Positions 435 through 30,518 of a DNA stretch of 34,653 nt are shown piece after piece. The notes beneath the pieces are model-generated. The model saw nothing but the letters and a program-made list of their open reading frames with translations. It ran no database searches and was not told the origin of the DNA. Source of the DNA: a virus (taxonomy: Duplodnaviria > Caudoviricetes); IMG/VR virus record IMGVR_UViG_3300020045_004995, positions 1 to 34,653 of that record; one strand, 5' to 3'. How positions within the stretch are numbered: position 1 is the first letter of the stretch; every line of letters starts with the position of its first letter. A program made the position numbers and the translations under genes.

Positions 435-839
435 ATGACTCTAAAATCTATCATCTTTTCATTACTTCTTCTACTTCCCCTATCAACCCTGACTAATGAC
501 ACCGAAGAAAAATGTATGGCTAATGCAGTCTATAAAGAAGCCAGAGGGGAATCTATTCAGGGAATGATTGGGGTTGCTTATGTGATCATGAACCGATTGG
601 AACATACCAAATTTCCTGATACTGTATGTGGGGTTGTATATCAACCAAGACAGTTTCCATGGGCAACCAAGAAAATTTCAATATCAGATCAAGAAGCTTT
701 TGAAAAATCTGTTACAATAGCGCAACAGGTTATGAATAAAACTGTAAAAGACCCAACGCATGGGGCTTTGTATTTCAGTACAAGCAAAATAACCAAAACA
801 TTAACAGCAAAAATCGGAAATCACTATTTTACTAAATGA
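435..839 (+). CDS. SleB-like cell wall hydrolase (Hydrolase_2) with N-terminal hydrophobic signal
   Basis: Motifs CMANAVYKEARGE, VAYVIMNR, FPDTVCGVVYQPRQF, DPTHGALYF and IGNHYF. ATG 435 (after the terminator) is preferred to 336. The stop overlaps the polymerase start (ATGA 836-839). Confidence 0.9.
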   Translation: MTLKSIIFSLLLLLPLSTLTNDTEEKCMANAVYKEARGESIQGMIGVAYVIMNRLEHTKFPDTVCGVVYQPRQFPWATKKISISDQEAFEKSVTIAQQVMNKTVKDPTHGALYFSTSKITKTLTAKIGNHYFTK

Positions 840-2497
840 CAAAATTTTATACATCAATTGAACGCTATGGTAATAACATCCTTTATCGGGGTTACGAAGA
901 TGGTCTTCCTGTTCAACAGAAGATTCCATATCGCCCCCATTTGTTTGTTGATTCTCAAGAAGAAAGTAAGTATAAGTTATTCAATACCAACAAGAATCTA
1001 ACAAAGAAGACATTTGATTCTATTAAGGATATGCGGGACTTTACTAAGTCATATGAAGGCATTTCAAACTTTGGAATCTATGGGTGTTCAGATATTGTTC
1101 GGCAGTTTACTGGAACAATGTTTAAAGATACTATTGATTGGGATTATTATCAGACTAAGATTTGGTTCTTTGATATTGAAACGACCGTTGGGGAAGCGAT
1201 TGATGAAAAAGGTAACACAATTCGCGGATTTGCGTCTGCTGAACAAGCAAATGAAACCATTCAGTTGATTACCTTGACTGAACATCATACAAACAAAATT
1301 TACACTTGGTCATACAAACCATTAGATAAAGACTCTGAAAATACTATAAGTAAGGAATTCCCATCCTTTGAGTATCGGGCATTCGATTCAGAAAAGGAAA
1401 TGCTAAAAGATTTCATTATGTTCTTTAGGCTTTCAAGGATTGATATTATCAGTGGTTGGAACTCAGAGACCTTTGATGTGCCGTATCTTGTTAACCGAAT
1501 CAAAAAAGTTCTAAATGAAACTGCTGTTCTTGGTTTATCCCCATGGGGAATTGTGAAACCAAGAACAATTAAGTTTGAAGATCGAGAATCCATCACTACA
1601 TATGATATTCTTGGGGTAACCCATCTGGATTATATTGATCTATACAAAAAGTTCAATCCTGGCAGTAAAGAATCATTCAAATTGGATTACATTGCTGAAA
1701 TTGAACTTGGTAAGAATAAGTTACCATTGCTTGGGGAATCATTCAAAGAATCGTATGATGGTACATTTGAAGTAACGAAGATCAACGAAAAATCCTCATT
1801 GATGGAAAAGTTAGCATATGAAAGTACCATTCTGAAACTATCAGGGGATACTTCATCCGATGAATACCTTACTTTGGATAAAGAAGTAAAACGTTTGGCA
1901 TGGGGACAATTCGTTCGATATAATATTATTGACGTAGATTTGCTTCATCATCTGGAACTAAAGATGCTTCAGGTACGTTTGGCAATGCAACTTGGATTTC
2001 TTGCTAAGTGTCCATTTGGCGATGTTCTATCTGCTATGCGTCTTTGGGAAAGTATTATCTATAATTACTTTCTTGATTTGAATATTGTTGAAGTATACGA
2101 AAAGGATCATAATGAACGGCATAAGATTATTGGGGCGTATGTACATGATCCAGTTCCCGGAAAATATGGTTGGTCAGTAAGTATTGATGCGACCGCACTT
2201 TATCCAAGTTTTATGATGCAAAATAATCTGTCCCCAGAAACTATTCTTGATTATTTCCCAGATGGGGTAATTGAAGATATGATTCGAAAGACATTAGAAG
2301 GTAAATATCCAGTTCAAGATGGCGCAATCCGTTCTCCAAATGGATTGATAACATCAAAGGATACTATTGGATTCATACCAATTTTAGTTAAACGAATGTT
2401 TGATTACCGTAAACAGACTAAGAATTTGATGTTGGAAAAGAAGAAAGAATTGGAAGTAATTCGGGAAAAATTGAAACAACTTGGGGTAACAATTTAG
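836..2497 (+). CDS. 43A: Family B DNA polymerase, N-terminal subunit (gp43A: exonuclease, motif A and first fingers helix)
   Basis: T4 gp43-like N-terminus (FYTSIERYGNNILYRGY), ExoI FFDIET, ExoII GWNSETFDVPY, ExoIII YNIIDV and motif A SIDATALYPS. It ends in the first fingers helix (RKQTKNLM...LGVTI*) with no motif B or C. Confidence 0.93.
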   Translation: MTKFYTSIERYGNNILYRGYEDGLPVQQKIPYRPHLFVDSQEESKYKLFNTNKNLTKKTFDSIKDMRDFTKSYEGISNFGIYGCSDIVRQFTGTMFKDTIDWDYYQTKIWFFDIETTVGEAIDEKGNTIRGFASAEQANETIQLITLTEHHTNKIYTWSYKPLDKDSENTISKEFPSFEYRAFDSEKEMLKDFIMFFRLSRIDIISGWNSETFDVPYLVNRIKKVLNETAVLGLSPWGIVKPRTIKFEDRESITTYDILGVTHLDYIDLYKKFNPGSKESFKLDYIAEIELGKNKLPLLGESFKESYDGTFEVTKINEKSSLMEKLAYESTILKLSGDTSSDEYLTLDKEVKRLAWGQFVRYNIIDVDLLHHLELKMLQVRLAMQLGFLAKCPFGDVLSAMRLWESIIYNYFLDLNIVEVYEKDHNERHKIIGAYVHDPVPGKYGWSVSIDATALYPSFMMQNNLSPETILDYFPDGVIEDMIRKTLEGKYPVQDGAIRSPNGLITSKDTIGFIPILVKRMFDYRKQTKNLMLEKKKELEVIREKLKQLGVTI

Positions 2498-3702
2498 AAC
2501 CAAGTTCTATCTATTAGAAGTTCATTACATAATTCCATTGTTAGTTCTTCTTTTGGATAAAATTTTATTGAATACACATCCTTTATATGTTTCCCCTTGT
2601 GGGTTTTGTTTAGCCCATTTGAAGATGTATGATTAGTGATCAATTTATTTGGGTCTAATAGAGCAGATTTTAAATATGTATTATCTAAATTTAATATATC
2701 ACATACTGTAGTTAATGAACTTGTAACTATATTTTTATTATCTGAAATAAATGTATATAATCCTTTTGATTGATGGGAAACCCATAATGGTATATCATCA
2801 ATCAATGATTTTACTTCTCTTGTAATAATGTGAGTCTTTATTTTTGTTCCAGAAAACGGATTTGCGAATGTTGCCCTACCACTAATCCAACCTTCAGGTT
2901 CTTGTCCTTTTGGGCATCTAATTTGTTCTTTTGTTTCTGGATTGTGGTAGAAAACCGTTCCTTTAGTGTGGGTATTGATTGTCCCATTCCCTTTGATAAA
3001 ATTATCTGGTTGTTCTCCTTCATGAAAATATTTTATTTCTTTAGTTATTGGAACATGATATGGAATGCCTTTATATTCTATTTGTCCTTTTATACTCATA
3101 ATTTGTCTACATTCAGCAGATTTGGTGGTTCCTTCTGACGTTGACCTATGAATCAATGGATCAAAATCTTTACACCAAATTCTTGTGGACACACCAGTTT
3201 CAATAATAATAACTGGTTGTTTTCCTAAAGAATCCTGTCTACTGACTTCACGCCTACGGTTCCTTTCTTCTTCCGAAACAGTTTTATACTTTTCGGATAC
3301 TGATGTACTCAAGCTTTTAGAAATATCAATTCTGGCTTCTTCATACCATTCACATATATTCAACAATTCATTTTCAGATAGATTGTGACCATGCTTTTTG
3401 ATGTATCTACGCATTTGATTGAATGCAAATGTCATTTTTATATCATTGATAGCTTTATATAGTAAATAGTGAGCGTACAAATGATCTTTACCTTGCAACA
3501 CAACTAAATTTTGGATGTCATTTGTGCCACCATGACTTACTGGTATAATATGATGCGTTTCGGAATATTCTGTTTTAGATTTTTTGAAATTGCGTATTTG
3601 ACTTTTTGTTTTAAAATCTATAAAATTTTTTGATATCAGTTGTTTATATTCTAAAAAGAAGGTATAATCAACAACATGTGGTTCGAGAATTGAAAAGTCC
3701 AT
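2494..3702 (-). CDS. Free-standing HNH homing endonuclease (Mob-like) inserted antisense between 43A and 43B
   Basis: HNH motif YSETHHIIPVSHGGTNDIQNLVVLQGKDHLYAHYLL, C-terminal repeats such as YHNPETKEQIRCPKGQEPEGWISGR, and an upstream SD (AAGGAA) and TAAATA on the - strand. Confidence 0.88.
   Translation of the reverse strand: MDFSILEPHVVDYTFFLEYKQLISKNFIDFKTKSQIRNFKKSKTEYSETHHIIPVSHGGTNDIQNLVVLQGKDHLYAHYLLYKAINDIKMTFAFNQMRRYIKKHGHNLSENELLNICEWYEEARIDISKSLSTSVSEKYKTVSEEERNRRREVSRQDSLGKQPVIIIETGVSTRIWCKDFDPLIHRSTSEGTTKSAECRQIMSIKGQIEYKGIPYHVPITKEIKYFHEGEQPDNFIKGNGTINTHTKGTVFYHNPETKEQIRCPKGQEPEGWISGRATFANPFSGTKIKTHIITREVKSLIDDIPLWVSHQSKGLYTFISDNKNIVTSSLTTVCDILNLDNTYLKSALLDPNKLITNHTSSNGLNKTHKGKHIKDVYSIKFYPKEELTMELCNELLIDRTWF
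3640..3668 (+). promoter_or_regulatory. Candidate sigma70-type promoter for 43B, embedded antisense in the HNH 5' end
   Basis: TTGTTT (3640-3645), a 17-nt spacer, then TATAAT (3663-3668), about 100 nt upstream of ATG 3768. Confidence 0.55.
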
Positions 3703-3724
3703 ATATTTCCTTTATTGTTATCTC

Positions 3725-3730
3725 TATTTA
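3725..3730 (-). promoter_or_regulatory. T4-like late promoter core (TAAATA) for the HNH gene
   Basis: The - strand reads GTAAATAGAGATAACAATAAAGGAAATATATG into the HNH start. Confidence 0.55.
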
Positions 3731-3767
3731 CTGTAACCCCAACCTACCATACACTCAATTAACCCAT

Positions 3768-3859
3768 ATGCAACAACAAATTGAAGAACTAAAAAAACAA
3801 TATTACACATTAGCAGATGAAATCGCTGCCCTTGATGTAACACAGTCATCATATAAGGT
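3768..3859 (+). CDS. 43B: DNA polymerase C-terminal subunit gp43B, exon 1
   Basis: MQQQIEELKKQYYTLADEIAALDVTQSSYK-GT| is the second fingers helix up to the motif B lysine. It ends in U at the predicted 5' splice site. Confidence 0.85.
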
Positions 3860-4110
3860 AAACTAAAACTGCCTGAATTATTGGAAACAATAATTTGTAA
3901 CCTGCTTAAACGGTGAAACTCCAGAACGGACAATACCGTGCCAAACCAGAAATGGTAGTGCGTAACGACTATGGTTGAAATACCAGTACATTCAAGTGAA
4001 TGGAAACAGCAGGGGTCTAGGAATAGATCAAGATATAGTCTGAACTTCTATAGGAATATAGAGCAGGGATAAATCCGGGATAATATTAACGACATTATCT
4101 GAACACCATG
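3860..4110 (+). ncRNA. ORF-less group I self-splicing intron (251 nt, IA2-like)
   Basis: 5' exon AGGU pairs with GCCU (3871-3874; U.G at the splice site). P2 is AATTATTG-GAAA-CAATAATT, P3 CCTGCT(3901)/AGCAGG(4008), P4 CGGT/ACCG and P7 GACTA(3967)/TAGTC(4036) within AAGATATAGTCTGA. Two extra hairpins (P7.1, P7.2) lie between P7 and P3', followed by P8, P9 and terminal G4110. Removal restores K-V-A-A-N-S-F-Y-G in frame. Confidence 0.93.
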
Positions 4111-5095
4111 AGCGGCCAATAGTTTTTATGGTATCCTCCTATTACCATATTTTAAGTATTATGATTACCGATTAGGAGAAGCCATTACTTCTGGGGGACA
4201 AGTATTTATTAAGAAAACACAACAAGTCGTGTTTGATATTTATAAACAAATTATTGGAATTGATAAAGACCCTGTTCTTATGATGGATACGGATTCGGTT
4301 TATTTTGACCTCCAAAAATTAGTCGATAAACATTGTGTTGGTAAGACTGATGCTGAAATCGTTGATTTCTTAGAAAAGTTTGTTATGAAAATTATTCAAC
4401 CAAAATTGAATGCTGAACTATCTAAATTTGCTAAGACAATGGGGATTGATGATTGTAAAATTTTCTTCAAACTTGAATGTATCGGATCATCAATTGTCAT
4501 CAAGGCTAAAAAGAAATACGCATTCGACATCCTATATTCAGAAGGTGTCCGTTATAAAGAAAAGAAAATGAAAGTCATGGGCATCGAAATTGTTCGTTCA
4601 TCTACCCCATCAGTGGTTAAAGATTCTCTGAAGAAAACTTTAGCATTAGTTCTTAGGGGAACAGAAGAAGATGTTCAGAAAAAGGTATCTGAAATCAAGA
4701 AAGAATTTATGACGTATGACTATCAGCAAATTTCTTTCCCAAGGGGTTGTAATGGTCTATCAACATATGCATCAAATTCTTCTATCTATCAAAAAGGATG
4801 TCCAATGCAAGTTCGGGGGGCGTTGTTGTATAACCATCATCTAAAGAAGAATGGATTGGATTCAAAGTATCCGTTGATTGGTGATGGGGAAAAGATTAAA
4901 TTTGTTGCTTTGAAGATGCCGAATCCAATTCATGAAAATGTGATTGCTTTTCCCGGTAAGTTGCCTAAAGAATTAGGATTGGAAAAATATGTTGATTACA
5001 AAGTTCAGTTCCAGAAAGCATTTGTAAAACCTATGGATGATATTCTGGAATGTATTGGGTGGACTTCAGTTCCTGTAATAACTTTAGACTGTTAG
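4111..5095 (+). CDS. 43B: DNA polymerase C-terminal subunit gp43B, exon 2 (motif B remainder, motif C, thumb)
   Basis: Reads AANSFYG...YFKYYDYRLGEAITSGGQ, MDTDSVYF, AKKKYA, MKVMGIEIVRSSTP and CPMQVRGALLYN. It is in frame with the listed ORF at 4229. Spliced 43B is 358 aa. Confidence 0.92.
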
Positions 5096-7768: not shown

Positions 7769-7928
7769 AAGCATTGAACAATATTATCGGCTCAACATGA
7801 AACTGATCTTAAATTACAGTATGTCTTTGGAATCCATTGAAGAAATGATTCCTTTTGAAAGGGAAGTTTATGTTGCATTAATTTTAGAAGAATTAGAAAA
7901 GAAGAAGCAACAAAATGGTGTTACCTAA
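7755..7928 (+). CDS. 51: Baseplate hub assembly catalyst (gp51-like); start uncertain, possibly reached by frameshift
   Basis: HESIEQYYRLNMKL...SLESIEEMIPFEREVYVALI. There is no ATG before the conserved part, only a TTG at 7755. Confidence 0.75.
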   Translation: MIIHESIEQYYRLNMKLILNYSMSLESIEEMIPFEREVYVALILEELEKKKQQNGVT

Positions 7929-9429
7929 TACAAATGCTGGTTCCCCCTCAGTTACCCCAAATTTAGGGATCAACCAACCAAATAGGGATGGTATCAATGC
8001 TAACGCATTGGCGAATACTAACAATGCAAATAAAGTGATGATTGACACGTTGAAAGGCATTGAAGCCAAACTTGGCAATATTACAAATCTTAAAACCAAT
8101 GTACAAAGTTCAATCTTTGAAGCGTTTGGTAATAACTTCATGACCCGTTCAACATCAGCTTTGATTGATGGGGTAGAAAGTGCTTTGGATAAATTCTTTG
8201 AAACACCAGAAGAAGTAAAGGAAGACCCAATTGTAGAAATTCTGAAAGGGCATACTGAACTTCTTACCCTTCAGAAAGACACATCCCTAAAATTATTGGA
8301 AAATTCAATGTCATCCAATAATAAACTTGATGCTGACTTGATTTCAGTTTCAAACATTATGGGGGAACAATCAAAAAAGTTTGATACGTTGATTGAGCTA
8401 ATGACCGAAATATTCTCAGGCGCATTAGAACATTCAAAAGCAGATGATACTGATCCATTACCAACAATTGGGGAAATAACAACAAACGAAATTCCAAATT
8501 CATTCAATGTGACTACCCCAAGTTCAGAAATCATTCAGAATGAAGCATCTGTAACCCCTGAAGTCACTAAAGCAGATACACCAATATCTGATATCAAACC
8601 AACATCATTCGTTTCTATGGAAGTAATGAATGAGTCGATGAATGATTTAGAAAATGATAAAAAACCAACAAAATCAACACAATTCTTATCTGATATTCTA
8701 AAACGTTTGACAGAAATGGCTGCTACGTTAAAATCTATGTCAGGGCCATTGAGTACCCAAGAATCTGATCTTGAATCAAAAAGAAAGGCTGAATTTATTG
8801 GCTCCATTAAACCCAATACTACAAATGCTTCTTCTTTGTTAGATGAAGCTGAATCTCCTGCCCCAAAATCAGAGGGTAATTCTATGGTTGAAAATGCTTT
8901 AGGGGCTGCTGGTCTGTGGGCAACAACAAAGGGAGTATTATCTAAAGGGAAGAATTTAGTTAAGGGGATTGGGGTCGGAAAACTTTCAATTGGAGGAATT
9001 CTTGGGGGGGCAGCATTAGATTATGGATCGGAACAACTAAAAGAAGCAGGACACGAAAAATCTGCTGCTGCAACATCGGTGCTATCCAATGCTGTTGGGG
9101 GCGCATCTTTAGGGGCTACCCTTGGTAGTGTTGTTCCTGGGATTGGAACTGGAATTGGGGCTGCTGTTGGGGGCGCAATTGGAACTGGGGTTGGTTTATG
9201 GGATAATCGGGAAACAATCTTTAGCAAGTCTGTTGAACCCAAAGCAGACGAAATCGAACAAAAACAAAAAGAAATTTTAGAAACCGAAAATAAAAAAGCT
9301 AAAGAAAGTGTTACAATTGCCCCAACAAACAACACAGTGAACAACAATACAACTGTTTTACCAACAAGAACAGTTGTAAAGAATCAAGAAGTGAGTTACA
9401 ATCGCTACTTAGATTCAGTTTTAGCTTAA
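7915..9429 (+). CDS. Probable baseplate hub / tail tape-measure protein (gp29-like)
   Basis: Follows gp26/gp51. Long low-complexity helical protein with a Gly-zipper segment (GASLGATLGSVVPGIGTGIGAAVGGAIG) and an N/T-rich C-terminus. Confidence 0.55.
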   Translation: MVLPNTNAGSPSVTPNLGINQPNRDGINANALANTNNANKVMIDTLKGIEAKLGNITNLKTNVQSSIFEAFGNNFMTRSTSALIDGVESALDKFFETPEEVKEDPIVEILKGHTELLTLQKDTSLKLLENSMSSNNKLDADLISVSNIMGEQSKKFDTLIELMTEIFSGALEHSKADDTDPLPTIGEITTNEIPNSFNVTTPSSEIIQNEASVTPEVTKADTPISDIKPTSFVSMEVMNESMNDLENDKKPTKSTQFLSDILKRLTEMAATLKSMSGPLSTQESDLESKRKAEFIGSIKPNTTNASSLLDEAESPAPKSEGNSMVENALGAAGLWATTKGVLSKGKNLVKGIGVGKLSIGGILGGAALDYGSEQLKEAGHEKSAAATSVLSNAVGGASLGATLGSVVPGIGTGIGAAVGGAIGTGVGLWDNRETIFSKSVEPKADEIEQKQKEILETENKKAKESVTIAPTNNTVNNNTTVLPTRTVVKNQEVSYNRYLDSVLA

Positions 9430-9445
9430 CCAAAGAAAATACATT

Positions 9446-10474
9446 ATGGCATTTAAAACGTGGAAAAAGATTAAAGAACAACCAAAGTTGGTATCTTCCT
9501 CATTTGCTTATGCGAATGATGACTATATTGAATATGTGAAAGCAAAATTTGTTCAGGATCATAGGGAAAAGAAACATTCAATTATTTCAATGCAAGTTGA
9601 AATCACGATTGATGCAAAAACTTTTGATACTTGGGTTCTGAATAAAGGATTCCAGAAGACTTCTATTTCTAAATCTGATTTTGTGTATGAATCAGATGAT
9701 GGTAAACTCATGTTTGAGTTTGAAAATAAGAAATGGAATCTTCGGGTTAAAGCAATTGGTATTCCTGAGTCTGTAAAAGCATTAGAAGAAGAAATTAAGA
9801 AAAAGTTTACCGTTAATCCATGCTATATCAAATGGATTTATGATCCTCAGTATCTTGAATCGATTACTATTCCTTTGGATTTCACCAATCTTCCTTGTGA
9901 TGAAATGTATCCATTCATGAATGAATCACTGACATCATATTATGATCGGTTCATGAAATCTCGTTCAAATATTCTTATTTTAATTGGGCCTCCTGGAACT
10001 GGCAAAACAACTTTTATTCGAGGTCTATTAGCTCATACTAAGAAATCTGCTGCGTTGACATATCATCCAGAAATTTTGAAACAAGATGCATTCTATGTGG
10101 ACTTCTTCCAGTCAAAAGAATCATTTTTGGTCATGGAAGATGCTGATCTATTATTGCTTCCAAGGTCAGATGGAAATTCTATGATGTCTCTGTTATTGAA
10201 TACTGGTGATGGATTGATTTCAGTTCAGGGAAAGAAACTGATCTTTTCAACAAATCTTTCATCTCATGTTGAAATGGATGATGCCATTACAAGGGCTGGA
10301 CGAGCATTTGATATTCTTTCATTTCGCCCTTTAGATAGGGATGAAGCAAAAGTTGTTGCCAATAAGTTTGATCATGAACTTGGGAATGGTTCTTCATTTA
10401 CTTTGTCAGAAATTTTTGCGGCAAAGAACAATGTAGTTCCATCAAACAATAGGTCAAAATTTGGGTTCATGTGA
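9446..10474 (+). CDS. AAA+ ATPase
   Basis: Walker A GPPGTGKT, Walker B LVMEDAD, sensor STN and arginine finger RAGR. Confidence 0.88.
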   Translation: MAFKTWKKIKEQPKLVSSSFAYANDDYIEYVKAKFVQDHREKKHSIISMQVEITIDAKTFDTWVLNKGFQKTSISKSDFVYESDDGKLMFEFENKKWNLRVKAIGIPESVKALEEEIKKKFTVNPCYIKWIYDPQYLESITIPLDFTNLPCDEMYPFMNESLTSYYDRFMKSRSNILILIGPPGTGKTTFIRGLLAHTKKSAALTYHPEILKQDAFYVDFFQSKESFLVMEDADLLLLPRSDGNSMMSLLLNTGDGLISVQGKKLIFSTNLSSHVEMDDAITRAGRAFDILSFRPLDRDEAKVVANKFDHELGNGSSFTLSEIFAAKNNVVPSNNRSKFGFM

Positions 10475-16879: not shown

Positions 16880-17926
16880 ATGAGACGAAAGAAAACTACA
16901 CAAGAAAACATATTGGAAGTAGAAACAAAGTTCGATGCTAACATCACATTACTTGATAATGGTAATGGCCCAGATATGATAGGATCAACATGTGATAAAC
17001 ATGGTGTTTTTACGTCATTACTGTTTGGACTGAAACACAAGAGATATCTATGCCCATCATGTGGAATTGACGCAAGAAACGCATCAAATATTAAGCAGGC
17101 AAAATTAGTAAAAATTCCGTTTTCCCAGCGCATTAACGAATATAGAAGTATTCATGGTGATAGATATGAATATACGGAATCAAATATAAGTAGAAAGGTA
17201 AATGTTCATTGCACAATACATGGTATATTCACTATTTTTATGCATTCCCATATGAAAGGGGTTGGGTGTCAATTATGTGAAAAAGAAGTCAGATTGACAG
17301 AAAAGATTGAACGTGATGAAATCATTAACAAGAAAAGGAATGATGGCATAAATCGTAGAGCATTAGCTAATATTAAGCGTGCGATGTCAATATCAGACAT
17401 TCAAACTTTATTTGATAATAAACATGGTGCAAAATATACATATGAATGGGATGACTTTACTGGCAAAAAGGGCAAGGTAACTGTAATATGTCCTTTACAT
17501 GGAAAAAGCAGACAAATTATATATGAACATACCAAGGCTAAACATGGGTGTCCAGCTTGTGCAAATACAAACAAATCGAAAAAAGAAACTGAATGGATCG
17601 AATCTTTAGGTATATTAGATACTCAAAAAATAATTTATCATGAACTTGGAAAATATAAAGTTGATGGGTATAATAAAAATACTAACACAATTTATGAATA
17701 TTTTGGTGATTATTGGCATGGGCATCCAAGATTATGGGTTAATAATGTGACTAAATGTAATGGGAGAAGCAAAAAATTATTCAGTGTTTTGTTTGATGAA
17801 ACAAATCTACGATTGGCAACATTATATAAAATGGGATATACAATAAAATACATATGGGAAAGCGAACTTCATATTCTCACATATACAGGAATACTTGAAT
17901 ATTCATTACCATCAAAACTTCAGTGA
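16880..17926 (+). CDS. Putative homing endonuclease: CxxHG zinc repeats (DUF723-like) plus Vsr/PD-(D/E)XK-like nuclease
   Basis: Three CxxHG...CxxC repeats and C-terminal YKVDGY...IYEYFGDYWHG...GY.IKYIWESE. Preceded by TAAATA (16865) and an AGGAG SD. Confidence 0.78.
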   Translation: MRRKKTTQENILEVETKFDANITLLDNGNGPDMIGSTCDKHGVFTSLLFGLKHKRYLCPSCGIDARNASNIKQAKLVKIPFSQRINEYRSIHGDRYEYTESNISRKVNVHCTIHGIFTIFMHSHMKGVGCQLCEKEVRLTEKIERDEIINKKRNDGINRRALANIKRAMSISDIQTLFDNKHGAKYTYEWDDFTGKKGKVTVICPLHGKSRQIIYEHTKAKHGCPACANTNKSKKETEWIESLGILDTQKIIYHELGKYKVDGYNKNTNTIYEYFGDYWHGHPRLWVNNVTKCNGRSKKLFSVLFDETNLRLATLYKMGYTIKYIWESELHILTYTGILEYSLPSKLQ

Positions 17927-19560: not shown

Positions 19561-20580
19561 TCAAGGTAGTGGATTCGATTGAGTAAGCAGTAATTTGCGC
19601 CTATTGCGATTTCTCAGTTTAGCCGCACATGAATGCGAACATGTTAACGATCTGATGTTTTTATGCGTATTATCGATAATATTTTGACATATTGGACATA
19701 CATCAAGAATAGGTTCTTTGTTTGGTTTATCCTTTTTTATTTTAGATAAATGATTTTTGATACTCAAATTCCCTCGTTTCCAACCATCAGGAATAACGTC
19801 ATCCTTATTCAATCGTTTTGTAGTGATTCCATCATTGACGTAAAAACACCCTATCGTTTTTTCATTTGCTAATCTTTGGGTATCTTTTGTTTCAATTGAT
19901 TGTGTCATTCCATTTTCCCATCCAACAGGGATTGATTCAGTCTTTAATATTTGTTTTGAATCTATACCATTAGTAATCCATATCCGCTTACCAAATTGAT
20001 TTTTTGGTGCATGTGCTTTTGGTCTACCCCAAATCCAATCAGCAGGGGGTAGAACGATAGATGGTAGCATAGTTGATTCTAACGTGATAGGATTGTGCCA
20101 CCACAAAAACCATTTGGGTGATCTATTTGGTTTATTGATATTTCCTTCATACCATCCATCAGGAACAGGCATATCAAACTTTACTACAATACATTTCTTA
20201 GTTTCCAAATTGGATATTCGTTTTGTCTTGAAGTTGCACTGAATAGTTTTATTGGCTTGCTGATTATTGTCAAGATTAGCCGACATAGGATTAGATACCG
20301 ATTTAGTCTTTACTAATAATCGCTGTTCATATAATACAGTATCTTCTATACTATCAAATGTTTTTAGAATTCTGTATTCTACATCGCACATTTCTGAATC
20401 CGATAGCAACGATTGAATCAGCTTAGAACTGGTGAAGTAAGTTTTTAGGAATGTTGAAGGGTGCGCTGACTTAGCGTATTTTGATCCGATGTACCAAATT
20501 CCGGTTGGAAGATGTTTGATGTAGTAGACATATGGGACAAAGGGAAGATTTGATTGCTTGTATGAATTTTTAACTTTCAT
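19561..20580 (-). CDS. GIY-YIG-like (Seg-type) free-standing homing endonuclease with tandem DNA-binding repeats
   Basis: PYVYYIKHLPTGIWYIGSKY...YFTSS...E..LL...N, four repeats such as WITNG...IPVGWENG, and C-terminal CPIC...TCSHSC. Confidence 0.78.
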   Translation of the reverse strand: MKVKNSYKQSNLPFVPYVYYIKHLPTGIWYIGSKYAKSAHPSTFLKTYFTSSKLIQSLLSDSEMCDVEYRILKTFDSIEDTVLYEQRLLVKTKSVSNPMSANLDNNQQANKTIQCNFKTKRISNLETKKCIVVKFDMPVPDGWYEGNINKPNRSPKWFLWWHNPITLESTMLPSIVLPPADWIWGRPKAHAPKNQFGKRIWITNGIDSKQILKTESIPVGWENGMTQSIETKDTQRLANEKTIGCFYVNDGITTKRLNKDDVIPDGWKRGNLSIKNHLSKIKKDKPNKEPILDVCPICQNIIDNTHKNIRSLTCSHSCAAKLRNRNRRKLLLTQSNPLP

Positions 20581-28011: not shown

Positions 28012-28785
28012 ATGATTAAATTAAATTCACCAACTAAATTTTGGAAATTTCCTGGTGGGGAAGTTGGGGTAAAACTTGAAGATATTCAATTCCCATGGTG
28101 TATTATCCATATGGATTTTGAAGGATCGGATGATATTCTTCAACTAATGAATCTATGTGATGCTCTACAAAGGGAATATGTATATGATATTCATCTGAAA
28201 ATGCCATATCTTCCCTATGCTCGACAAGATCGAAAATGTCATTCTGGTGAAGCATTTTCGTTAAAAGTATTTGTGAAACTCCTTGCTTCTATTGGTATTA
28301 AAAGTGTAGGATGTACTGATGTCCACTCAGATGTAGCCAAGGAATTGTTTGACGCATACGATATTGAATTTTGTAATATTGAACAGTGGCAAATTGCTAA
28401 AAATTTACCAGAATTTGATTACTTGATTGCCCCTGATCTTGGTTCCCATGGAAAGGCAAGTAAAACTTGGGAAAATTCATTTTCAAATTTAGTAACCCTG
28501 ACGAAAACACGAACCGAAAGCGGAATTGTGTATGATGATCTGGAAGATACAATTGATGGAACTGCTATCATTTTAGATGATATTTGTGATTTTGGGGGGA
28601 CGTTTTTAGCGTGCGGGGCTATGCTCAAACGCACCCAGCCCCGTATGACTTCATTAAACTTGTATGTGACCCATGGATTGCTTGGTAAAGGAACTGATGC
28701 TTTGTTTGAAATCTATGATAAAATCTATGTACATAATCTGATGAATAAAAACTTATCTTATTCTGATCGACTTATTGAAATTTAA
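28012..28785 (+). CDS. Ribose-phosphate pyrophosphokinase-like protein (putative Adps of NARP1)
   Basis: FPGGEV, PYLPYARQDR, DVHS, IAPDLG, ILDDICDFGGTF and LYVTHG. Promoter TGATACAAT (27982-27990). Confidence 0.9.
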   Translation: MIKLNSPTKFWKFPGGEVGVKLEDIQFPWCIIHMDFEGSDDILQLMNLCDALQREYVYDIHLKMPYLPYARQDRKCHSGEAFSLKVFVKLLASIGIKSVGCTDVHSDVAKELFDAYDIEFCNIEQWQIAKNLPEFDYLIAPDLGSHGKASKTWENSFSNLVTLTKTRTESGIVYDDLEDTIDGTAIILDDICDFGGTFLACGAMLKRTQPRMTSLNLYVTHGLLGKGTDALFEIYDKIYVHNLMNKNLSYSDRLIEI

Positions 28786-28808
28786 CTTAACACAAAGGAA
28801 ACTATATT

Positions 28809-30518
28809 ATGAAACTTTTCGCACCACACATTACTGACGGATACAAGTTGGGGCATCCCAGTCAACTAGACAAAGGAACCGAATATATCAGTTCCAATTT
28901 TACCCCAAGGGATTTTTCCCATGCAGTGACATTACCATCAACAAAAACTGATCGTATGGTTTTTGTTGGACTTCAGTATGCTATCAAAGAATACTTGATT
29001 ACCCAATGGAATGATTCATTCTTTTCTAAACCAAAAGAAGAAGTTCTGGCAAAATATGCCCGAAGGATCAAGAACTATCTTGGAACTAATCAAGGTGTTG
29101 CTGCTCAGAAAATGATATCTGGCCTACATGATCTTGGATATCTTCCAATCAAGATAAAAGCATTACCAGAAGGATCAAAAGTTAATGCTGGTATTCCAGT
29201 GTTTACGGTAACAAATACTGTATCTGGGTTTGGGCCTTTGGTTAATTATATTGAAACTGTTCTATCTGCTGTAGTTTGGCCTATGTGTAATTCTGCATCT
29301 CTGATGGAACAATATTATCTCCTTGCCAAGAAATATGGTCAACTAACAGGCGCTTCAGAAGAATTCTGGTTACCTTTTGCAATCCATAATTTTGCTATGC
29401 GTGGGCATCGCGGGGTCGAAGATGCTATCATTTCTTCATTTGGTCACTCGCTATTCAATAAAGGTTCTGATACTTTCGCTGTTATTGACTTTATTGAAGA
29501 CTATTACAATGGAAACTCAGACAATGAATTCATTGCAGGGTCTGTAAACGCATCAGAACATGCTACAGTGTGTCAACAGATTGCATTCAACGGTGGCGGT
29601 CATGATGGGGAAGTTGCTGCCCTGAAACACTTTTTGACCAATGTGTATCCAACTGGTATCTTTTCATATGTAAGTGATTCGCGGGATTATTGGGATGTGA
29701 TTGGTAATATTGCGTCTGAACTTAAAGATGTGATTCTGTCACGGGGTGCTAATGCTGACGGTCAACCGGGGGTTCTTACATTCCGCCCCGATAGTTCAGT
29801 TGATACACCATATGAAGTTATTCTTGGGTACACTTGGGTTGAAGTTGATACGTTGGAGGGGCAAGATGTTTATGATTTTGTTGATGAATCAGATGCCCAA
29901 GTAGTTCTATATCAAGGTAAGTTTTATCGAGTATACGCTGCGGTTGATACTCAATATGAGTATGGTGAGTCATGGAATACAAACTATCATCTAGAACTTG
30001 GGCGTGAAATGAGCAAGGGTGAAGTACACGGCACACTGCAAACTTTGTGGGATACGTTTGGAGGTGAATATGTGTATGGAAAATTAGGTGCGTTTAGATT
30101 GTTAGATTCTCATGTGCGAATTATCTACGGTGAAGCCATTAGTTTGCCCATGGCAGAAAAGATTTATAAAGGTATGGTTGAAGCAGGTTGGTCAGTGGGT
30201 AACGTATTTTTTGGGGTTGGTTCATGGGCATTTATCGGTAATTCGAGTAGGGATTCGTATGGTATTGCTTGTAAAGCAACAAATTCTGTTGTGAATGGTG
30301 TTGAATATGCCCTTCAGAAAGAACCAAAAGGAACATCAACATATAAGAAATCTGCTAAAGGTCGGCTACGGGTTGAATATAAAAATAACAAATTTGTTCT
30401 GTATGATGAACAAACAGTAGAACAAGAAAATCAAGGATTACTGGTTACTGTTTTTAAAGATAGCAAAATGATAAAAGAAACTTCTTTTGTAGAAATTAAG
30501 ACATTAGCCCGTAAATAA
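28809..30518 (+). CDS. Nicotinamide phosphoribosyltransferase-like protein (putative Namat of NARP1)
   Basis: TDGYKLGH, FTPR, GYLPIKIKALPEG, ASEH, SYVSDS.DYW, FRPDS and KKSAKG. Confidence 0.92.
   Translation: MKLFAPHITDGYKLGHPSQLDKGTEYISSNFTPRDFSHAVTLPSTKTDRMVFVGLQYAIKEYLITQWNDSFFSKPKEEVLAKYARRIKNYLGTNQGVAAQKMISGLHDLGYLPIKIKALPEGSKVNAGIPVFTVTNTVSGFGPLVNYIETVLSAVVWPMCNSASLMEQYYLLAKKYGQLTGASEEFWLPFAIHNFAMRGHRGVEDAIISSFGHSLFNKGSDTFAVIDFIEDYYNGNSDNEFIAGSVNASEHATVCQQIAFNGGGHDGEVAALKHFLTNVYPTGIFSYVSDSRDYWDVIGNIASELKDVILSRGANADGQPGVLTFRPDSSVDTPYEVILGYTWVEVDTLEGQDVYDFVDESDAQVVLYQGKFYRVYAAVDTQYEYGESWNTNYHLELGREMSKGEVHGTLQTLWDTFGGEYVYGKLGAFRLLDSHVRIIYGEAISLPMAEKIYKGMVEAGWSVGNVFFGVGSWAFIGNSSRDSYGIACKATNSVVNGVEYALQKEPKGTSTYKKSAKGRLRVEYKNNKFVLYDEQTVEQENQGLLVTVFKDSKMIKETSFVEIKTLARK

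What the first reader, a model, noticed from the sequence alone, without database searches (positions are those of the whole stretch)
836..5095. DNA polymerase interrupted twice: split by an antisense HNH gene and by a group I intron
Seen: 43A stops at 2497 in the first fingers helix and 43B restarts at ATG 3768 with the second helix. Between them lies a 402-aa HNH gene on the opposite strand, and 92 nt into 43B a 251-nt intron interrupts motif B. Known: some T4-related Aeromonas/Acinetobacter phages encode gp43 as 43A/43B split at the fingers tip, and MobE splits nrdA in Aeh1. Inference: active polymerase needs both RNA splicing and assembly of two polypeptides through the fingers coiled coil. 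I do not know of this combination in one gp43 locus, but cannot search to confirm.
Basis: partly seen in the sequence, partly recalled or inferred. Interest (0 to 1): 0.85.

Follow-up and report, generated by a model that had tools for sequence, protein, structure and literature searches.

The report
Twice-interrupted T4-like phage DNA polymerase
An uncultured T4-like phage encodes its DNA polymerase as two genes with a backwards-facing HNH nuclease gene between them and a group I intron in the second, so the enzyme likely needs both RNA splicing and assembly of two proteins; this layout is already published for Aeromonas phage 25, and here it differs in nuclease family, nuclease orientation and intron position.

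Summary
Removing the intron restores motif B. 43A plus spliced 43B is 63% identical to an uninterrupted homologue, lacks only 2 of its residues, and keeps all 17 key residues checked.

The combination is not new. Aeromonas phage 25 has 43A, a free-standing endonuclease and an intron-bearing 43B. Cultured Providencia phage PSTCR6 and one IMG/VR contig carry the same layout with a homologous antisense HNH. The scan noted this layout before on other genomes.

What differs from phage 25: the nuclease is a MobE-like HNH, not GIY-YIG; it is antisense; the intron sits 26 nt further upstream; and the polymerase lineage is distant. All 6 near-full-length HNH homologues whose loci I read lie in a split PolB, and the associated introns occupy four sites within 26 nt of motif B. 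Splicing, dimer formation and homing are inferred, not shown. Reads did not test the junctions.

Verdict: new variant of a known kind.

The parts
836..2497 (+). 43A: N-terminal, exonuclease, first palm segment (motif A) and first fingers helix of a T4-type PolB, 553 aa, ending in an amphipathic extension shared with other split alleles
2494..3702 (-). Free-standing HNH homing-endonuclease gene, 402 aa; N-terminal catalytic domain related to MobA/MobE; H50, H51, N65, H74 and H78 invariant in 9 of 9 close homologues aligned
3703..3767 (.). 65-nt divergent spacer between the HNH start and the 43B start; holds an AAGGA Shine-Dalgarno and a TAAATA late-promoter-like motif on the minus strand for the HNH; no Shine-Dalgarno for 43B
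   Evidence: promoter function untested; the late-promoter consensus is recalled
3544..3668 (+). Two TATAAT boxes (3544, 3663) inside the HNH 5' end, candidate internal promoters for 43B; unverified
   Evidence: promoter-like sites in the region are not above shuffle expectation (20 found, 23.2 expected)
3768..3859 (+). 43B exon 1 (92 nt): N-terminal extension and start of the second fingers helix, up to the motif B lysine
3860..4110 (+). ORF-less group I intron, 251 nt, IA2-like (two hairpins between the P7 5' strand and P3'), inserted after the second base of the codon equivalent to T4 gp43 residue 558
4111..5095 (+). 43B exon 2: rest of motif B, palm with motif C, and thumb

Best explanation
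The locus is a split T4-type polymerase gene (43A and 43B) that likely makes a working two-chain enzyme after the group I intron is, as predicted, spliced out of the 43B message, and the antisense HNH gene is likely a homing nuclease that spreads itself and carries the nuclease-less intron along. Shown in sequence: the three elements, a complete set of polymerase residues across the parts, and a unique splice that restores motif B. Inferred steps: (1) the split was present without either passenger, as in relatives L007 and L012, which have only a 44-46-nt spacer; (2) the HNH gene settled in that untranslated gap, where it costs no coding sequence; (3) 43A and spliced 43B assemble through the shared palm and the two fingers helices, lengthened by extensions on both chains; (4) in mixed infections the HNH nicks or cuts intron-less gene 43 alleles at or near motif B, and repair copies the HNH gene, the split tip and the intron, which lies 157 nt from the HNH start (collaborative or trans homing). 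Steps 1-3 about 0.85-0.9; step 4 about 0.7; a cut exactly at the intron site about 0.4.
For: Completeness: 62.7% identity over 824 columns to uninterrupted P0017, 2 of its residues unmatched, 17 of 17 T4 key residues checked are conserved. Intron. The split is a maintained trait: 44 of the 119 best non-self homologues end at the same fingers tip with a similar helix. Precedent: split 43A and 43B co-purify and have polymerase activity (PMC2988022 passage); an engineered fingers split leaves Pfu polymerase active (PMC3061061 passages). HNH association: 4 of 4 opened phage records (of 17 listed with 70-75% coverage) and 2 of 2 IMG/VR loci have the homologue directly upstream of 43B in a split PolB. 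Three of those six also have a group I intron in motif B. Split and whole alleles are interspersed on the tree: 15 changes among 61 rows, one clade rejected at p-AU 1.5e-6, which fits lateral spread.
Against: No splicing, expression, cleavage or homing data exist for this locus. Three Acinetobacter phages carry the homologous HNH with no intron (3 of 6 loci), so the pairing is not obligate. The intron sites differ among HNH carriers, and those HNHs are only 25-37% identical to this one, so a shared target is unproven. Interspersed split and whole alleles could equally reflect repeated re-fusion, since the counts cannot tell gain from loss; the tree is a quick LG+G4 search. 43B has no Shine-Dalgarno motif, though 22 of 41 starts examined lack one, and no clear promoter. 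No close relative with HNH plus an intron at this same site was found.
Confidence: 0.7

Rival explanations
1. Split enzyme and splicing as above, but the HNH gene and the intron are independent passengers. The HNH targets something else or is inactive, and the intron arrived on its own (for example by reverse splicing) at a conserved motif.
For: HNH without intron in 3 Acinetobacter phages. An intron in gene 43 without this HNH in phage JSE, at motif A. Four different motif B intron sites among carriers.
Against: Motif B introns were seen in 3 of 6 HNH-homologue loci and in phage 25, whereas 151 of 160 other gp43 loci fetched have an uninterrupted motif B and none of the 4 split ones has a group I match. 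The catalytic residues of the HNH are intact.
Confidence: 0.22
2. The parts are joined at the RNA or ribosome level into one polypeptide, with the whole HNH region removed as an intron or bypassed, so no heterodimer is needed.
For: The GenBank record of phage AB-Navy4 joins its polymerase across the equivalent region as 'interrupted by intron'.
Against: No group I match in that region of three Acinetobacter records, nor in window 3400-3849. Relatives L007 and L012 have stop, short spacer, Shine-Dalgarno and ATG. Published biochemistry describes two chains.
Confidence: 0.04
3. The locus is a pseudogene or a chimeric assembly.
For: Single metagenomic contig; no read bridges any junction.
Against: All three ORFs are intact and the catalytic residues are conserved. 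The same order and orientation occur in cultured, lytic phage PSTCR6 and in L169. The break point is shared with 44 of 119 homologues.
Confidence: 0.04

Closest known systems
Gene 43 of Aeromonas phage 25 (43A, seg43(25), 43B with intron 25.g43B; NC_008208; Petrov, Ratnayaka and Karam 2010, cited in PMC2988022 and PMC2993671)
   Same: Split at the fingers tip (T4 ~508-510), free-standing homing endonuclease gene between the halves, ORF-less group I intron in motif B of 43B.
   Different: Phage 25 has a same-strand GIY-YIG gene (267 aa) and a 347-nt intron in the codon for T4 L567. Here the nuclease is an antisense 402-aa HNH and the 251-nt intron lies 26 nt upstream, in codon 558. The polymerases are about 29-32% identical and fall in separate clades.
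Gene 43 of Providencia phage PSTCR6 (MW057858)
   Same: 43A, antisense HNH homologous to this one (30% over 323 columns), 43B exon 1, group I intron (71.8 bits), exon 2.
   Different: The intron is 447 nt at the phage 25 site, and the polymerase is of the T4 lineage. The layout is not annotated in the record; the phage's paper has 0 occurrences of polymerase, intron, split or endonuclease in its main text.
Split gene 43 of Acinetobacter Lazarusviruses (AB-Navy4, Lazarus, AM101)
   Same: 43A/43B split with a homologous antisense HNH (annotated MobE or HNH) directly upstream of 43B.
   Different: No intron found; five further small genes lie between 43A and the HNH.
Collaborative and trans homing (free-standing endonuclease mobilising an ORF-less or defunct intron; T4 mobE with the nrdB intron)
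   Same: Free-standing HNH within co-conversion distance of a non-autonomous intron (PMC2790892 and PMC3984707 passages).
   Different: The target site and homing are untested here.

Membership tests
Split gp43 (43A/43B) | T4-type PolB in two cistrons broken at the fingers tip, each with its own stop or start | tested here: met
Split gp43 (43A/43B) | All exonuclease and polymerase motifs present across the parts | tested here: met
   17 of 17 residues checked; 2 residues of P0017 unmatched
Split gp43 (43A/43B) | The two chains form an active complex | not testable with these tools
   needs co-expression; no complex prediction was obtained
Group I intron | Catalytic core matching RF00028 above the gathering score | tested here: met
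   62.7 vs 50 bits in a local scan; missed by the whole-window fast scan
Group I intron | 5' exon ends in U paired to G in P1, intron ends in G, removal restores the frame | tested here: met
   P1 helix in the fold; G4110 is the only site restoring motif B
Group I intron | Self-splicing activity | not testable with these tools
   no RNA data
Subgroup IA2 | P7.1 and P7.2 hairpins between P7 and P3' (definition recalled) | tested here: met
   two hairpins at that place, alignable to the phage 25 intron annotated IA2
Mob-like HNH homing endonuclease | N-terminal HNH motif with conserved His, Asn and His | tested here: met
   partial hits to T4 MobA and Aeh1 MobE
Mob-like HNH homing endonuclease | Site-specific nicking or cleavage of alleles lacking the element | not testable with these tools
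   needs a cleavage assay
Phage 25 element (seg43(25) plus 25.g43B) | Same-strand GIY-YIG endonuclease and intron at codon L567 | tested here: not met
   HNH, antisense, intron at codon 558: works like it, not a member
Collaborative homing pair | [quoted passage not shown] | not testable with these tools
   only circumstantial co-occurrence

The most novel reading that the evidence does not exclude
This HNH belongs to a family dedicated to the PolB fingers tip. It jumps between very distant T4-like lineages, spreads the split allele with its helical extensions as a cassette, and has been joined independently by group I introns at several sites packed into 26 nt of motif B (T4 codons 558, 562/563, 563, 567). 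The set of loci (split only; split plus HNH; split plus HNH plus ORF-less intron; split plus HNH plus nuclease-carrying intron) would then be a natural series of replicates of the proposed path from free-standing nuclease to mobile intron, testable in a cultured phage (PSTCR6).
Probability: 0.35. Interest if true: 0.55.

Novelty: new variant of a known kind. Interest (0 to 1): 0.3.

Why it matters
It extends a layout published for one Aeromonas phage to a distant, uncultured T4-like lineage, with a different nuclease family and a different intron site. This suggests that nucleases and introns converge on the fingers and motif B region repeatedly. The practical value is the comparison set: one HNH family found with no intron and with introns at several neighbouring sites allows a direct test of whether introns insert where a neighbouring nuclease already cuts. 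For gene callers it is a reminder that the 30-codon exon 1 of 43B is missed, as in the PSTCR6 record. A specialist would find it neat, not surprising.

Tried and rejected
Reads: no RNA holder listed. The one run listed has a 0.06 share of words and covers only short pieces of 43A, so it says nothing on junctions, habitat or expression.

Complex prediction of 43A with the 43B parts: the queue was full and no result was obtained. A fold of the HNH had not finished.

Single-sequence scans for close relatives in viral contigs gave 1 distant locus and none. The HNH alignment found none in genome contigs. A pattern for this intron's 3' end followed by motif B found 0 in viral contigs. None of the 8 loci at 44% identity or more to 43A has the HNH: 2 split, 5 whole, 1 cut by the contig end.

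A look-alike of the intron-less junction near the HNH start (operator or invasion footprint; lead from e1-10029900) is absent: best matches are at chance level in 5 of 5 window sizes.

Internal promoter for 43B: the TATAAT boxes fit the phage's other TATAAT sites poorly and are not enriched; left open. The idea that the HNH N-terminus conserves such a box was dropped, because the residues encoding it are not conserved in the family.

The JSE gene 43 intron lies at motif A, not at this site. The blastn search of the intron against phages gave only partial core matches, 0 of 321 records covering 80%. Petrov 2010 is not held in the library.

Full report
Observation. The window is part of a T4-like phage genome: DNA end protector, tail tube, small terminase and baseplate hub genes follow the locus. 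ORF 836-2497 (+, 553 aa) is the N-terminal part of a T4-type PolB and matches RB69 gp43 up to residue 505. ORF 3702-2494 (-, 402 aa) is an HNH homing-endonuclease homologue whose stop codon overlaps that of 43A. After a 65-nt spacer, ATG 3768 opens 92 nt of coding sequence, followed by an insert matching the group I intron model at 62.7 bits (gathering score 50). A whole-window scan with faster filters missed this match. With the 5' site after U3859, 3 of 15 candidate G residues give an open frame and only G4110 keeps all of motif B. The junction then reads as in uninterrupted homologue P0021. The P1 helix and two IA2-type hairpins appear in the predicted fold (z = -2.6).

Completeness. 43A plus spliced 43B is 62.7% identical over 824 columns to uninterrupted P0017, with 2 of its residues unmatched; 17 of 17 T4 exonuclease and polymerase residues checked are conserved. 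The motif A aspartate is in 43A and the motif C aspartates are in 43B, so the active site is shared between the chains. The interface is therefore wider than the fingers helices (inference from the recalled RB69 domain layout). Between shared anchors on either side of the tip, the split form has 39 residues against 12 in short-tipped whole alleles: both chains carry helical extensions.

Relatives. Of the best 120 homologues of 43A (2033 found; only lengths 304-968 were searched), a motif test called 69 whole, 48 short and 3 other. After dropping the window's own protein and three irregular fragments (P0076, P0079, P0082), 44 of 119 end at the fingers tip. Of 160 gp43 loci fetched (mostly 30-37% identical), 151 are whole, 4 split and 5 uninformative. 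The two close split loci, L007 and L012, have only a 44-46-nt hairpin spacer, no HNH and a continuous motif B, like phage 44RR as described in the review. On a quick tree of 56 of the 120 homologues plus 5 references, the window's clade is separate from T4, phage 25 and PSTCR6 (SH-aLRT 100). Split and whole alleles are interspersed (15 changes; one clade rejected, p-AU 1.5e-6). The labels were set before the tree and the test was run after seeing it; gain and loss cannot be told apart.

The HNH family. tblastn matched 234 phage records; 17 listed rows cover 70-75% of the protein, and the other listed rows cover at most 34%, the MobA/MobE-like catalytic part. I opened 4 of the 17. All four have the homologue antisense and directly upstream of 43B in a split gene 43. 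Three Acinetobacter phages have no intron; Providencia phage PSTCR6 has a 447-nt group I intron in motif B. Both IMG/VR loci found with the family alignment are also split PolBs. L169 has an antisense HNH and a 237-nt intron (81 bits). L170 has a same-strand HNH and a 774-nt intron-like insert (40.2 bits, below the gathering score, E 1.6e-8) that carries another HNH ORF. In T4 numbering the introns lie in codon 558 (window), at 562/563 (L169), in 563 (L170) and in 567 (phage 25, PSTCR6), all within 26 nt. I inferred these boundaries from the U|...G rule and frame restoration. The window's intron is closest to that of L169 among these (76% over 151 nt).

Mechanism. The most likely reading is a working two-chain polymerase whose second chain needs self-splicing, with the HNH as a homing nuclease that occupies the untranslated gap and mobilises the ORF-less intron 157 nt away. 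Completeness and the splice solution are shown in sequence; splicing, assembly and homing are inferred. Against an obligate nuclease-intron link: 3 of 6 HNH loci lack an intron, the sites differ, and no target look-alike lies near the HNH start. How 43B is transcribed and translated is open: it has no Shine-Dalgarno motif (22 of 41 starts examined lack one) and no convincing promoter. Reads do not test the assembly.

Prior art. The phage 25 record shows 43A, a same-strand homing endonuclease and 43B 'split by group IA2 intron'. PMC2993671 (passages) describes intron 25.g43B as lacking its own nuclease and predicted to use a free-standing one. PMC2988022 (passages) describes seg43(25), the 44RR spacer, and co-purifying, active 43A and 43B. 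PMC3061061 (passages) covers natural and engineered fingers splits. PMC3984707 and PMC2790892 (passages) define collaborative and trans homing. PMC4177764 (passages) notes a split gene 43 in phage ZZ1. Petrov 2010 itself is not held; from recall of its abstract only, the phage 25 nuclease cleaves intron-free 43B DNA, the intron self-splices, and the complex was shown for 44RR, whereas the review names phage 25. Six library searches listed no paper describing an antisense HNH plus intron at gene 43, or this intron site. The PSTCR6 paper's main text does not mention it (term search; supplements not read). Subscription papers are largely missing from the library, so absence from print is not established. 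Earlier agents of this scan reported the same layout on other genomes; these are unchecked notes and not independent support.

Verdict. A real, probably functional locus; a new variant of a published arrangement; interest 0.3. The family-level pattern, one HNH family at the PolB tip with introns at several neighbouring motif B sites, is the part worth following up.

Noticed in passing
L063 about 2262-2274 and L072 about 2621-2633; also L173, L174 (L171 and L172 duplicate L072 and L063): In a distant freshwater split-gp43 group, 43B carries a 10-nt insertion just after motif B: two matched glycine codons flank a 7-nt gap that begins with a stop codon and lies in a small predicted hairpin. About 50 nt around it are identical in 4 of 4 distinct sequences whose flanks differ at synonymous sites; no group I match. 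It looks like a very short ribosomal hop of the T4 gene 60 type, or an intron relic. The bypass preprint 10.1101/2022.08.31.505936 has no mention of polymerase in its main text. Possibly more novel than the assigned finding.
   Followed up: partly
L072 1698-2495; L063 about 2050-2135: L072 has a same-strand GIY-YIG gene between 43A and 43B, as in phage 25; L063 keeps only its 3' remnant.
   Followed up: partly
MW057858 (L006 1777-6183): Cultured phage PSTCR6 has an unannotated 43B exon 1 and group I intron; the record lists them as a hypothetical protein and a gap.
   Followed up: yes
OL770259 (L003 2221-7822): The AB-Navy4 record joins the polymerase across six genes as an intron; sister records annotate a 43A/43B split and no group I match was found.
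   Followed up: partly
L007 about 7820-8310; L011 about 8015-9565; L170 from about 6300: Intein-like inserts at the motif C DTD-S site in relatives; in L011 the insert is broken by a stop, with a second long ORF in another frame. Intein identity read from sequence, not scanned.
   Followed up: no
window about 1735-1900: 43A carries an insert of about 55 residues near the end of the exonuclease domain, absent from 496-aa relatives but with counterparts in P0022, P0025 and P0037.
   Followed up: no
window 16880-17926 (+) and 19561-20580 (-): Two further endonuclease-like genes (PHROG HNH and homing endonuclease hits).
   Followed up: no
window 28012-30518: Adjacent ribose-phosphate pyrophosphokinase and nicotinamide phosphoribosyltransferase genes, an NAD salvage pair of the kind recalled as a phage counter-defence module.
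   Followed up: no
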